Of a stretch of 64,000 bases of DNA, positions 1,720 to 3,207 are shown piece after piece (position 1 is the stretch's first letter; each line of letters opens with the position of its first letter). The position numbers and the translations under genes are program-made. The DNA is taken from positions 352,001-416,000 of the forward strand of contig CAWEXO010000013.1 in the NCBI GenBank assembly GCA_963813025.1, written 5' to 3'. The notes beneath the pieces were generated by a model. That model was not told the DNA's origin. It saw nothing but the letters and a program-made list of their open reading frames with translations, and did no database searches. The stretch is from an uncultured Verrucomicrobiae bacterium (lineage in GTDB: Bacteria > Verrucomicrobiota > Verrucomicrobiia > Chthoniobacterales > JAFAMB01).

Positions 1720-2064
1720 TGCGCATTTCCGTTTGGAGGTTTGGGAGCTGTATCGCGCAGCATCAGCCTTGGCCTCAGTCCTGAGTCGACCTGATACAGG
1801 ATCCTCTTGGGATGTCGTTCTCTCAGACTTTGGGACGGAAGCCTCCGAACCGGCCGGTAATCTTTCTTGAGCTCTCGTAGAGCGGGATGCACCGGACCGT
1901 ACCGGTCCGCAGGCAAAGCTGCCAATCGCCTTCTGACACTGCTTGGAGCTATTAACAACCCCAAGTCGAGTCGTGGCCAAGTTATGTACCGGCTCCGATG
2001 AATAATGCGGCCTGCAATGGTCCTTCTGCCGGCGCCGGTGCATAACTATGGAAGCCGTATCAGG
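1720..2064 (-). ncRNA. IS110 left non-coding end encoding a putative bridge RNA
   Basis: ~345 nt 5' of the recombinase; contains GGTGCATCC (1893-1885) identical to the flank at 2071-2063 and GTATCAGG (1797-1790) complementary to the element's first bases, each in a stem-bounded internal loop. Confidence 0.75.
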
Positions 2065-2072
2065 ATGCACCA

Positions 2073-3207
2073 GTGCCAGAGAGTAAAATGGTCTCGCTTG
2101 ATGAGCGAGCAAAAGATCAAGGAAAGCCTTTCCTGGAGCAGTTACTGCAAGAAGGAGCCAGGAAGCTGTAACAGGCGGCAATCGAAAACGAGGTTATCGA
2201 CTATATCCAATTCCACCAGGATCGGCGGGATGAGAATGGACAGCGGTTGGTGGTGCGCAATGGACACATGCCGGAGCGGGAAGTAGTTAGTGGAGTCGGT
2301 CCAATCCGGGTTCGCCAGCCACGGGTTGGGCATCGTGACAGGGGTCGATTTTCCAGTGCGATTCTGTCCAAGTACATGCGGCGCGCTCCCAGCGTTGATG
2401 CGCCGATTCCAGCCCTTTATCTGAAAGGGATCACGACCGGAGATTTCAGCGAAGCGTTGACCGCGATTTTGGGGGAAGGAGCCAGTGGGCTATCAGCCAC
2501 CAACATCGTCAGACTCAAGAGCAGTGGGAAGCCGATTACAAGGCATGGAGCCAGCGAAGATGGCACCAAGGAACTCTTAGCGGTTGTCGACGGATATCGC
2601 GAAAGCAGCCAATCCTGGCGTGAATTGCTTGGGCAACTCAAACGCCTGGGGCTGGCGGCCGCGCCGAAGCTGGCCATCGGTGACGGTGCACTTGGCTTCT
2701 GGATCGCTTTGCAGGAAGAATATGGTCCAGTCGCACAGCAGCGTTGCTGGGTACATAAGACGGTTAATATCCTGGATAAAATGCCGAAGAGCATCCAGGG
2801 CAAGGCCAAGCAATTAATCCATGAAATGTACCTGGCTCCGACTCGTAAAGCGGCGTTGGCAGCCTACGATCAGTTCATCAACAGCTACCAGATCAAATTT
2901 CCAAAGGCCTGTGAATGCCTGGAGAAAGACAAAGAAGTTCTCTTTACCTTTTACGACTTCCCGGCTCAACATTGGCCGCACCTGCGGACCACCAATCCCA
3001 CCCCAATCCACCTTCGCAACCGTTCGGCTCCGAACTCATCGAACTAAGGGTTCCGGTTCACGAATCGCGACACTAACCATGGTTTTCAAACTCGCTCTGG
3101 AAGCCCAAAAGCATTGGCGCCGGCTCGAGGGCTTCGAACTAATCCCCAAGGTAGTTACCGGCGTCCGTTTCGTCGATGGTGAAGAACAAGCCCAACAAGC
3201 TGCTTAA
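2073..3207 (+). pseudogene. IS256-family (mutator) transposase, degraded
   Basis: VVRNGHMPERE, LYLKGITTGDF, LAIGDGALGFW, QRCWVHK, HLRTTNP motifs; in-frame TAA at 2169, internal deletion ~2550, frameshift ~3000. Confidence 0.9.

What the first reader, a model, noticed from the sequence alone, without database searches (positions are those of the whole stretch)
1720..2075. IS110 bridge RNA apparently programmed to hit the ribosome-binding site of an IS256 transposase
Seen: on the minus strand the IS110 leader has GGTGCATCC (1893-1885), a small hairpin GCTCT-ACG-AGAGC, then TCAAGAAAG (1870-1862), all inside a CCGGTA/TACCGG stem. A second stem-bounded loop further 3' holds GTATCAGG (1797-1790). 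The element's junction reads flank GGTGCATCC (2071-2063) running into TGATAC. So the first 9-mer equals the left target, and the 8-mer is the reverse complement of the element's start. Known: IS621-type bridge RNAs have a target loop (LTG, RTG) followed by a donor loop (LDG, RDG), which is this order. Inference: joining the putative RTG to the visible flank rebuilds the empty site as TCAAGAAAGGATGCACCAGTG (plus strand). That is an AAGGA Shine-Dalgarno 7 nt before the in-frame GTG start (2073) of the IS256 transposase. This would be an RNA-guided IS that targets and silences another IS, with a core inside CCT.
Basis: partly seen in the sequence, partly recalled or inferred. Interest (0 to 1): 0.9.

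Follow-up and report, generated by a model that had tools for sequence, protein, structure and literature searches.

The report
Bridge-RNA IS110 aimed at IS256 leader
A small RNA-guided jumping gene (IS110 family) carries a guide RNA whose target loop spells out a 15-base site found only just upstream of the transposase gene of another jumping gene (IS256 family), and it has landed there repeatedly in this genome; a clear natural example of a known mechanism rather than a new one.

Summary
The window holds the 5' part of a 1651-bp IS110-family element (minus strand, cut by an IS3 at ~940). Its 340-nt leader encodes a bridge RNA with target loop then donor loop. This is backed by a consensus structure over 50 related leaders (23 of 28 pairs with compensatory changes). 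Guide/flank covariation holds over 45 distinct guide pairs.

Element junctions and uninterrupted IS256 copies fix the core as CT (minus strand) and the target as GGTGCATC-CT-TTCTT. The left target guide matches 9 of 9.

All 9 perfect 15-mers in the 4.4-Mb genome lie at one position in IS256 leaders, in the 3' arm of a stem that pairs the Shine-Dalgarno sequence. Five further IS256 leaders carry IS110 junctions at exactly that position. Their hosts are 83-92% alike while the IS110 copies are 99% alike, so these are repeated hits.

One full copy sits at an unrelated palindromic site (off-target).

'Silencing' is plausible, because the promoter is displaced, but it is not shown. This is a new member of a known kind.

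The parts
940..2063 (-). Left 1124 bp of an IS110-family element of 1651 bp, counting one core copy. The remaining ~530 bp and the right end lie left of the window at C13:350965-351495, beyond an inserted IS3.
   Evidence: blastn against the laid genome. Copies A (C13:18498-20151) and B (C13:452327-453979) are 99.6% and 99.0% identical.
942..1722 (-). 5' part (about 260 codons) of the IS110 recombinase gene, ATG at 1722-1720, cut by the IS3. The intact copy A gives 416 aa.
   Evidence: Pfam DEDD_Tnp_IS110 E 5e-30 on the window fragment. The full protein also has Transposase_20. A profile of 12 relatives hits the IS621 transposase 8wt6 at E 3e-18.
1774..1925 (-). Bridge RNA body: a 5' hairpin (about 1923-1912), the target-binding loop module (1908-1847) and the donor-binding loop module (about 1840-1774). 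The RNA ends are not determined.
   Evidence: RNAalifold consensus on 50 leaders. Pair counts: 93.4% of cells paired against 30-46% when partners are slid, and 23 of 28 pairs with compensatory change.
1885..1894 (-). Left target guide (LTG) CGGUGCAUCC. Positions 1893-1885 equal the 8 nt left of the core plus the first core base.
   Evidence: Identical to flank 2071-2063. This segment covaries with the left flank in relatives.
1871..1883 (-). Cap hairpin of the target loop (GCUC / GAGC).
   Evidence: All 4 pairs show compensatory changes (helix 4).
1862..1868 (-). Right target guide (RTG) AAGAAAG, the reverse complement of core CT plus TTCTT.
   Evidence: Matches the right-end flank and all 9 empty sites. 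In relatives, 34 of 36 distinct guide pairs match at 4 or more of 5 non-core positions.
1814..1823 (-). Left donor guide (LDG) AGAGAACGAC. AGAGAAC equals the conserved right-end sequence, and the last C falls at the first core base.
   Evidence: The right end reads ...AGAGAAC-AT-CT (GT in copy A). AGAGAAC-NT-CT is conserved at the right end of relatives.
1801..1813 (-). Cap hairpin of the donor loop (AUCC / GGAU).
   Evidence: 3 of 4 pairs show compensatory changes (helix 7).
1791..1797 (-). Right donor guide (RDG) GUAUCAG, the reverse complement of core CT plus element start GATAC.
   Evidence: Nearly invariant in relatives, whose left ends all start CT|GATAC-like.
2057..2063 (-). Left junction: core CT (2063-2062) followed by element start GATAC (2061-2057).
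   Evidence: Comparison of filled and empty sites: the shared prefix ends at T and the shared suffix starts at C, an overlap of CT.
2064..2071 (-). Left target (LT) GGTGCATC in the IS256 leader.
2064..3220 (+). Body of a decayed IS256-family element from nt 103 onward. The transposase start GTG is at 2073 and the first stop comes after 32 codons. Its first 102 nt lie left of the window, beyond the IS110.
   Evidence: Pfam Transposase_mut E 3e-38. Intact relatives give a 413-aa protein at E 2e-61. Ends and leader come from 9 aligned copies; ORF states.

Best explanation
This is an ordinary IS110-family, IS621-type RNA-guided insertion sequence. Its bridge RNA is naturally programmed for a site that, in this genome, exists only in the 5' leader of a resident IS256-family element.

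**Shown from sequence**

- The recombinase has both IS110 domains.
- The leader folds into two internal loops, each capped by a hairpin.
- In the first loop, a 9-nt string equals the left flank (8 nt plus the first core base). A 7-nt string is complementary to core CT plus the 5 nt of right flank.
- In the second loop, 7 nt equal the right-end sequence. Another 7 nt are complementary to CT plus the first 5 nt of the element.
- The element is bounded by CT on both sides.
- The perfect 15-nt target occurs 9 times in the genome, always 102 nt into an IS256 copy. Five more IS256 leaders carry IS110 junctions at that exact position.

**Inferred from the IS621 mechanism (Durrant 2024, Hiraizumi 2024)**

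A circular form joins right end, CT and left end. The recombinase tetramer with bridge RNA then pairs the donor junction and the IS256 site and exchanges strands at CT.

**Consequence (inferred)**

The IS256 transposase gene is separated from its left end, where its promoter is presumed to lie, by 1.65 kb of antisense DNA. An AGGA is still rebuilt before the start codon.

I think the most likely reason for this target is that a multicopy, host-neutral sequence is a safe and renewable landing pad. Damage to IS256 is probably a side effect.
For: **Family membership**

- Pfam PF01548 and PF02371 are both found on the intact copy.
- A profile of 12 relatives hits the IS621 transposase 8wt6 (E 3e-18) and the ISCro4 transposase 9t56 (E 8e-15). 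In that alignment the conserved GxD, E, DxxD and YxSG motifs line up with IS621's, and in the relatives' alignment D16, E64, D105 and D108 are invariant and S321 nearly so.

**RNA structure**

- 50 leaders and 28 pairs were scored; 23 pairs have compensatory changes.
- 93.4% of cells are paired, against 30-46% with slid partners. Zero of 500 shuffles reach the observed values.

**Guide code in relatives**

- The left flank matches its own LTG at 7 or more of 8 positions in 32 of 45 distinct guide pairs. Among non-cognate pairings this happens in 13 of 1978.
- The right flank matches at 4 or more of 5 positions in 34 of 36, against 57 of 1254.

**This element**

- The guides are identical in the three copies.
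- All 9 of 9 genome-wide 14-mers lie in IS256 leaders.
- For the 15-mer: 9 perfect sites, 0 with one mismatch, 3 with two.

**Independent hits**

The host IS256 copies of W, B and the two contig-8 sites are 83-92% identical, while the IS110 pieces are 99-100% identical.

**Closer relatives**

Elements in another genus (71-78% leader identity) carry other guides and other flanks.
Against: - Copy A has the same guides but lies in an unrelated palindromic site inside a gene.
- The LTG does not pair with the second core base (C where T is expected).
- The two contig-8 filled sites have one mismatch in the left target: GATACACC instead of GATGCACC.
- No sigma-70-like promoter was found in the linear leader (0 hits). 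No Rfam family matched (0 hits).
- No RNA, circle junction or polymorphic insertion could be observed. The only sequencing runs available were contigs.
Confidence: 0.9

Rival explanations
1. The guide has been selected because it disables IS256. On this reading the IS110 acts as an antagonist of a competing IS, or as a host-beneficial brake, by splitting the leader at the ribosome-binding site.
For: - The insertion point lies in the 3' arm of a 10-bp stem that pairs the Shine-Dalgarno region (fold -30.5 kcal/mol, z -6.2, 0 of 200 shuffles as stable). It is 9 nt before the start codon.
- Zero of 4 filled IS256 copies keep an intact ORF, against 4 of 9 empty ones.
- Some relatives also sit next to starts of other IS genes: L021-L023 lie 9 nt before an IS3 orfB ATG, and L058 lies 31 nt before an IS3 orfA.
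- An IS256 copy has itself interrupted a distant IS110-like gene on contig 5.
Against: - 0 of 4 against 4 of 9 is not significant, and old copies decay anyway.
- AGGA and its spacing to the start codon are rebuilt at the junction.
- Four intact, identical IS256 copies with perfect target sites remain unfilled.
- Most relatives target REP-like or other repeats, not gene starts.
- Nothing here measures IS256 expression.
Confidence: 0.2
2. The several IS256::IS110 junctions are copies of one ancestral composite, spread by duplication or by IS256 transposition, rather than repeated guide-directed hits.
For: - A filled IS256 keeps its left-end repeat, as seen for copy B and for the W copy's outlying left end. 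If its right end is also intact it could be moved in trans.
- The W left flank and the RE-only locus at C13:254911 share an identical 47-nt leader stretch.
- The two contig-8 sites share the same left-target variant.
Against: The host IS256 of W against that of B is 83-85% identical, and W against the contig-8 hosts is 87-92%. The IS110 parts are 99-100% identical. The insertions are therefore younger than the divergence of their hosts, which implies at least three separate events.
Confidence: 0.05
3. Target choice is made mainly by DNA structure or by protein contacts (hairpin or palindrome recognition), and the guide matches are secondary.
For: - Both the IS256 site (an arm of an inverted repeat) and the copy A site (inside a perfect 8-bp palindrome) lie in potential stem-loops.
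- A 2026 preprint reports a target stem-loop as an extra specificity determinant for ISPpu10. I read the abstract only.
Against: Guide and flank covary across 45 guide pairs. The perfect 15-mer is confined to IS256. Structure may add to base pairing, but it cannot replace it.
Confidence: 0.05

Closest known systems
IS621 bridge RNA system (IS110 family). Sources: Durrant et al. 2024, PMC11208160 (passages read); Hiraizumi et al. 2024, PMC11208158 (passages read).
   Same: - Recombinase with a DEDD RuvC-like domain plus a Tnp domain.
- RNA encoded in the left end, upstream of the gene.
- Target loop first, then donor loop, each with a left and a right guide around a cap hairpin.
- CT core.
- LTG identical to the top strand of the left target; RTG complementary to core plus right target.
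- LDG stops at the first core base, as reported for IS621 (LDG pairs positions 1-8).
   Different: - The protein is too distant for a single-sequence PDB hit; only the profile matches.
- The LTG here pairs 8 nt plus only the first core base (9 bp) and has C opposite the second core position. IS621's LTG pairs 7 nt plus both core bases.
- The RTG is 7 nt. IS621's is 4 nt, and 7 nt corresponds to its 'extended' form.
- The leader is 340 nt.
- The natural target is an IS256 leader, not a REP.
ISEc21 and the IS1111-family seekRNA (Siddiquee et al. 2024, PMC11187229; passages read).
   Same: - The non-coding region upstream of tnp in IS110-type elements encodes the guide, with the bottom-strand match 5' of the top-strand match.
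- Close relatives are naturally reprogrammed to other targets.
- There is no true target duplication.
   Different: That work defines a short 70-100 nt seekRNA covering the target module. Here no RNA ends are known.
[quoted passage not shown] Partridge & Hall 2003; I saw only the title in the reference list of PMC11187229, plus a mention of the IS4321 target logo.
   Same: A DEDD-family IS whose specific target lies inside another mobile element, so that many copies of that element become filled.
   Different: The sub-family differs (guide downstream of tnp). The target is a transposon end repeat rather than the leader and ribosome-binding region of an IS256-family transposase gene.
ISPpu10 and ISPpu9 of Pseudomonas putida. 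Abstracts only: for ISPpu10; the search listing for ISPpu9.
   Same: IS110-family elements that land in multicopy repeats with stem-loop potential.
   Different: Their targets are REP or intergenic repeats, not another IS. A role for the IS256 leader stem in recognition is untested here.

Membership tests
IS110 family (IS621-type bridge recombinase element) | Recombinase with an N-terminal DEDD RuvC-like domain and a C-terminal Tnp domain | tested here: met
   PF01548 E 9e-30 and PF02371 E 2e-14 on the 416-aa protein of copy A. The window fragment has PF01548 only, because the gene is cut.
IS110 family (IS621-type bridge recombinase element) | Catalytic D/E/D/D and the Tnp-domain serine conserved | tested here: met
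   D16, E64, D105 and D108 are invariant and S321 nearly invariant in 12 relatives. In the profile alignment to 8wt6 the conserved GxD, E, DxxD and YxSG motifs line up with IS621's GIDTAKE, IEA, DTVDA and YESG. The paper names S241. The IS621 numbers for the acidic residues are recalled, not from any call.
IS110 family (IS621-type bridge recombinase element) | Non-coding RNA in the left end with two internal loops (target loop, then donor loop), each capped by a hairpin | tested here: met
   Consensus structure of 50 leaders; 7 helices, 23 of 28 pairs with compensatory change.
IS110 family (IS621-type bridge recombinase element) | LTG and RTG match the two flanks; the guides covary with the flanks among relatives | tested here: met
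   W: 9 of 9 and 7 of 7. Relatives: 32 of 45 and 34 of 36 cognate pairs, against 13 of 1978 and 57 of 1254 non-cognate.
IS110 family (IS621-type bridge recombinase element) | LDG and RDG match the element's right and left ends | tested here: met
   RDG GUAUCAG against CT+GATAC, 7 of 7. LDG AGAGAAC against the right end AGAGAAC, 7 of 7. Of the next three positions, 1 of 3 match in W and B and 2 of 3 in copy A.
IS110 family (IS621-type bridge recombinase element) | CT core dinucleotide at both junctions and in the empty site; no other duplication | tested here: met
   Filled against empty comparison. CT is also found at the junctions of nearly all relatives.
IS110 family (IS621-type bridge recombinase element) | Circular intermediate, expression of the RNA, and RNA-dependent recombination | not testable with these tools
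   Only assembled contigs of public runs were available. No promoter-like site was found in the linear leader.
Rfam RNA family | Match to a curated covariance model | tested here: inconclusive
   0 matches at E up to 1 in window 1-6000. I do not know whether Rfam 15 holds a bridge RNA model.
IS256 family (the target element) | Mutator-type DDE transposase, terminal inverted repeats, multicopy | tested here: met
   PF00872 E 2e-61 on the 413-aa protein. Imperfect terminal repeats and sharp homology boundaries in 9 aligned copies. At least 14 leaders in the genome. Target-site duplication was not examined.

The most novel reading that the evidence does not exclude
The guide is not merely parked on a convenient repeat. 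It has been selected to cut IS256 off at its translation-control stem, making this an RNA-guided IS that antagonises a competing IS.

The traffic runs both ways in this genome, since an IS256 copy sits inside a distant IS110-like gene. Several relatives in the clade also aim at the start regions of other IS transposase genes (IS3 orfA, IS3 orfB).

A milder variant is that the filled IS256 still has usable ends. The IS110 would then hitch-hike when intact IS256 copies supply transposase in trans.
Probability: 0.15. Interest if true: 0.6.

Novelty: new member of a known kind. Interest (0 to 1): 0.4.

Why it matters
It gives a clean natural case in which all four bridge RNA guides, the core, the empty sites and several independent filled sites can be read from one genome. 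The target is another insertion sequence's leader.

That makes IS-on-IS targeting by bridge RNAs directly testable. Does it silence IS256? Does the composite still move?

It also supplies about 45 naturally reprogrammed guide pairs from a Verrucomicrobiota/Planctomycetota clade. These show a 7-nt right target guide and a left target guide that often stops at the first core base. This adds breadth to a known mechanism and is not a new one.

Tried and rejected
- **Rfam scan** of window 1-6000 at E up to 1: 0 matches.
- **Single-sequence folds** of the leader. These were not informative: z -1.55 and -1.22, with 6 of 100 and 28 of 200 shuffles as stable. Only the comparative structure is convincing.
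- **Promoter and terminator scan** of 1650-2150: 0 and 0. A conserved TTGTGA-N17-CACAAT-like block upstream of the RNA in some relatives is a candidate promoter, seen by eye. The W version (TTGTTA-N17-CAGAAG) is weak.
- **phmmer of the recombinase against PDB:** 0 hits. The profile search was needed.
- **Public runs**. All were assembled contigs. One soil-metagenome run holds 0.56 of the sampled words, and one of its contigs repeats the right-end/IS256 junction. That run may be the source sample, so it is not independent support. An RNA-library run held 0.06 of the words. No statement on expression, circles or polymorphism can be made.
- **tblastn of the IS256 transposase** against the 79 related loci: no hit at E up to 1e-5. 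The relatives sampled do not sit next to IS256-family genes.
- **Earlier notes of this scan near this place:** nothing returned.
- **Literature search** for IS110 + IS256 + 'bridge RNA': 0 papers in the held library. That library is not all of the literature.
- **Copy A site against the guides.** I compared it with the target guides and the donor guides by eye and found no convincing half-match. Left unexplained.
- **Count of the two LTG registers among relatives.** The register statement therefore rests on reading individual rows, not on a count.
- **Translation errors.** They were repeated with other coordinates or without that locus.
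Full report
**What is in the window**

The first 4.3 kb are a pile of nested insertion sequences.

- An IS3-family orfB (rve, HTH_21) runs off the left edge, and that element ends near 939.
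- From 940 to 2063, on the minus strand, lies the left 1124 bp of an IS110-family element. Its recombinase gene starts at ATG 1722 and is cut by the IS3 (DEDD_Tnp_IS110, E 5e-30).
- From 2064 rightwards, on the plus strand, is a decayed IS256-family transposase gene (Transposase_mut). Its putative start is GTG 2073.
- Near 3221 that gene is itself interrupted by an IS630-like element (DDE_3, 3381-4337).

The window is C13:352001-416000 of a 4.42-Mb, 16-contig assembly.

**Checking the observation**

GGTGCATCC occurs exactly twice in 64 kb, at 1893-1885 and 2071-2063. Seven of 100 shuffles give two or more matches somewhere, so the repeat alone is only suggestive. CTGATAC alone is at chance level. 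The weight comes from position and from comparison, described below.

**The element and its ends**

blastn against the genome finds two uninterrupted copies:

- Copy A, C13:18498-20151, 99.6% identical.
- Copy B, C13:452327-453979, 99.0% identical.

The missing right part of the window copy (W) is at C13:350965-351495, beyond a ~1.45-kb IS3. Further pieces are a 416-bp right-end fragment at C13:254496-254911, a 74-bp left-end fragment at C8:328676-328749, and a ~16-nt left-end remnant at C8:345492.

Uninterrupted IS256 copies read ...AAGAAAG|GATGCACCA(G/A)TG on the plus strand (9 copies). Filled copies read ...AAGAAAG|ATGTTCTC...(IS110)...CCGTATCAG|GATGCACC.

The prefix shared by the empty site and the left junction overlaps the suffix shared by the empty site and the right junction by exactly AG on the plus strand, which is CT on the element's sense strand. 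So the core is CT. On the sense strand the target is GGTGCATC-CT-TTCTT, the element starts GATAC and ends AGAGAACAT, and its length with one core copy is 1651 bp.

The far junction does carry AAGAAAG against the right end. Intact IS256 copies carry 15 of the 17 guide-derived letters, and only the first two (TC) are wrong.

**The bridge RNA**

Rfam has no match and single-sequence folds are unremarkable, so I used relatives.

- The search for related loci returned 79 loci with recombinases 49-69% identical, all from Verrucomicrobiota, Planctomycetota and other MAGs.
- I aligned the ~370 nt upstream of the gene for 73 of them, dropping L012, L014, L039, L042, L073 and L077 as too short or partial.
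- The leaders align in blocks in this order: ACGGUC, a variable 10-mer, a small hairpin, a variable 9-mer ending AG, A(U/G)(U/C)ACCGG, then CUGAGAGAAC-NNN, a hairpin, GUAUCAG-NUCGAC.
- From 55 distinct leaders I aligned 50, leaving out L022 and L023 (near-duplicates of L021) and L050, L065 and L071 (long insertions).
- RNAalifold gives two stem-bounded internal loops, each capped by a hairpin. There are 28 pairs, 23 with compensatory changes.
- Counting that structure gives 93.4% of cells paired, against 30-46% when partners are slid by 1-3 columns. The covariation score is 0.56 against 0.08-0.14, and 0 of 500 shuffles reach the observed values.

In W the modules are:

| Module | Coordinates (minus strand) |
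|---|---|
| Outer stem of target loop (read by eye) | 1908-1902 with 1853-1847 |
| Inner stem of target loop | 1899-1896 with 1858-1855 |
| LTG | 1894-1885 |
| Cap hairpin | 1883-1871 |
| RTG | 1868-1862 |
| Donor-loop stems | about 1840-1834 with 1781-1774; 1829-1826 with 1787-1784 |
| LDG | 1823-1814 |
| Cap hairpin | 1813-1801 |
| RDG | 1797-1791 |

**Guide code**

In the relatives the left end is always LT|CT|GATAC-like, and the right end is AGAGAAC-NT-CT-RT.

- Of the 74 aligned leader rows, an LE junction could be located in 67. Seven were dropped: W itself through an orientation slip in my script, 4 with no junction found, and 2 with too little flank.
- These 67 give 45 distinct guide pairs.
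- The left flank matches its own LTG at 7 or more of 8 positions in 32 of 45, against 13 of 1978 non-cognate combinations.
- For the 36 pairs with a right junction, the 5 non-core right-flank bases match the RTG at 4 or more of 5 in 34, against 57 of 1254.

This is the signature of a programmable target loop with a constant donor loop.

For W itself:

- The LTG matches LT plus the first core base, 9 of 9.
- The RTG matches core plus 5, 7 of 7.
- The RDG matches core plus GATAC, 7 of 7.
- The LDG matches AGAGAAC, 7 of 7, and ends with C at the first core base.

The position opposite the second core base is C in the LTG and A in the LDG, so it is unpaired. For the LDG this is what the IS621 structure paper reports (LDG pairs positions 1-8 only, and T9 is read by the protein). 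For the LTG it differs from IS621 (9 nt including both core bases).

Reading individual rows, some relatives have CT at the end of the LTG (for example L005, L013, L045). Others, like W, have only the C (for example the L007 family, L046, L047, L064).

**Specificity in this genome**

- All 9 occurrences of the 14-mer GTGCATCCTTTCTT are in IS256 leaders at the same position.
- With the core fixed, the 15-mer has 9 perfect sites, none with one mismatch, 3 with two and 70 with three.
- Of 14 IS256 5' regions examined, 4 have the IS110 left end abutting, 9 are empty with a perfect site, and 1 has a deletion in the site. A fifth filled leader is the right-end-only locus.
- The host IS256 copies of the filled sites are only 83-92% identical to each other, while the IS110 pieces are 99-100% identical. 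The insertions are therefore recent and separate, at least three events, and not copies of one composite.
- The three full copies have identical guide segments. The six variable leader positions (2008, 1977, 1949, 1943, 1928, 1828) lie outside the guides.

**The exception**

Copy A has the same guides but lies inside a gene, within a perfect 8-bp palindrome, at a CT. Its flanks do not resemble the target or the donor. Its right end reads GT instead of AT before the core, which matches the LDG one base further.

I regard it as an off-target insertion. A 2026 preprint reports that such events are common for IS621 (abstract only). It remains unexplained.

**The target in IS256**

- Nine aligned copies define the IS256 ends, and the insertion point is after nt 102.
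- The intact transposase is 413 aa (PF00872, E 2e-61). It starts at an ATG that corresponds to GTG 2073 in the window.
- The target overlaps AAAGGA, 7 nt before the start codon.
- In the leader RNA, GCAUCCUUUC pairs with GAAAGGAUGC about 45 nt downstream, burying the Shine-Dalgarno sequence (-30.5 kcal/mol, z -6.2, 0 of 200 shuffles as stable). The IS110 therefore lands in the 3' arm of a translation-control stem.
- A one-letter variant of the same motif (GGCGCATCCTTT) also sits inside both IS256 ends. It differs from the guide at 3 positions of the 15-mer and is not hit.

**Does it silence IS256?**

After insertion the gene keeps an AGGA at the same spacing, because the core AG replaces the AG of AAAG. 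It is, however, separated from the IS256 left end, where a promoter is presumed but was not looked for, by 1.65 kb read in antisense.

Zero of 4 filled copies have an intact ORF (first stops after 32, 184, 143 and 50 codons), against 4 of 9 empty copies. That fits silencing followed by decay, but equally fits age. Four intact copies with perfect sites remain empty. I treat silencing as a likely consequence and not as a demonstrated function.

**Wider context**

- None of the 79 related loci has an IS256-family gene in its flanks.
- Several do sit in or beside other IS genes: L021-L023 lie 9 nt before an IS3 orfB ATG, L058 lies 31 nt before an IS3 orfA, L011 lies in an rve gene, and L066 lies beside an IS630-like HTH.
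- Among 41 genomes of the same order, this element at 97% identity or more was found only in the window's genome.
- One genome of another genus has three copies of a closer relative (71-78% leader identity) with different guides in REP-like flanks.
- IS256 relatives with a perfect empty site (G010), or with a one-mismatch empty site (G001, same genus), exist without the IS110.

**Comparison with what is known**

The mechanism is that of IS621 and ISEc21. A DEDD-family IS aimed at another mobile element has a precedent in IS4321/IS5075, which target Tn21-family end repeats (I saw the reference title only).

A search of the held library for IS110 + IS256 + 'bridge RNA' found no paper. That does not show the case is unpublished.

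I therefore file this as a new member of a known kind. It is well documented and of moderate interest.

Noticed in passing
L004:205-300 (= C13:598904-598999), an intact IS256 copy; the 3' arm corresponds to window 2064-2068 plus sequence left of the window: The IS256 leader RNA folds into a strong stem (GCAUCCUUUC with GAAAGGAUGC, about 45 nt apart) that buries the Shine-Dalgarno sequence. Energy is -30.5 kcal/mol, z -6.2. It looks like a translation-control stem against read-through expression.
   Followed up: yes
IS256 copies aligned (for example C13:598873-600300): The motif GGCGCATCCTTT sits about 40 nt inside both ends of IS256, as inverted copies. A one-letter variant forms the ribosome-binding region. 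These may be transposase-binding sites; untested.
   Followed up: partly
L001:499-2152 (copy A, C13:18498-20151): A full IS110 copy with identical guides lies at a CT inside a perfect 8-bp palindrome, within an ORF (L001 118-564 reads into it). The flanks match neither the target nor the donor guides. Its right end has GT instead of AT before the core.
   Followed up: partly
window 1-945: An IS3-family element (orfB 3-890, end near 939) is inserted into the IS110 recombinase gene. Relatives about 78% identical lie on C13, C11 and C9.
   Followed up: partly
window 3221-4337: An IS630-like element (DDE_3, HTH_32) is inserted in the 3' end of the window's IS256. Its first ~40 nt recur at 97-100% identity in at least 10 other places in the genome.
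   Followed up: no
G000:C5:276318-278789: A distant IS110-like recombinase gene (65-75% nucleotide identity) is itself split by an IS256 copy that has an empty, perfect target site. The flank of that IS256 translates to an IS110-like peptide. The two IS families have therefore hit each other in both directions.
   Followed up: partly
L021-L023 (junction 2148), L058 (688), L011 (2154), L066 (2067): Other members of this IS110 clade sit beside or in transposase genes of other IS families: IS3 orfB 9 nt from the ATG, IS3 orfA 31 nt from the ATG, an rve gene, and an IS630-like HTH.
   Followed up: partly
Alignment A1 columns 37-48; Among relatives the left target guide comes in two registers. In one it ends in CT, paired to both core bases. 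In the other it ends in a single C paired to the first core base only, as in W. The count was not completed.
   Followed up: partly
C5:203603, C5:278361, C1:150147: Three empty IS256 copies share a first stop after 126 codons. This is either a shared frameshift or a subfamily feature.
   Followed up: no
L085, L091, L093 (G006); L087 (G010); L088 (G001): A closer IS110 relative in another genus carries different target guides and sits in REP-like palindromic repeats. IS256 relatives in two other genomes have the target site empty: perfect in G010, and with one mismatch in the same-genus G001.
   Followed up: partly
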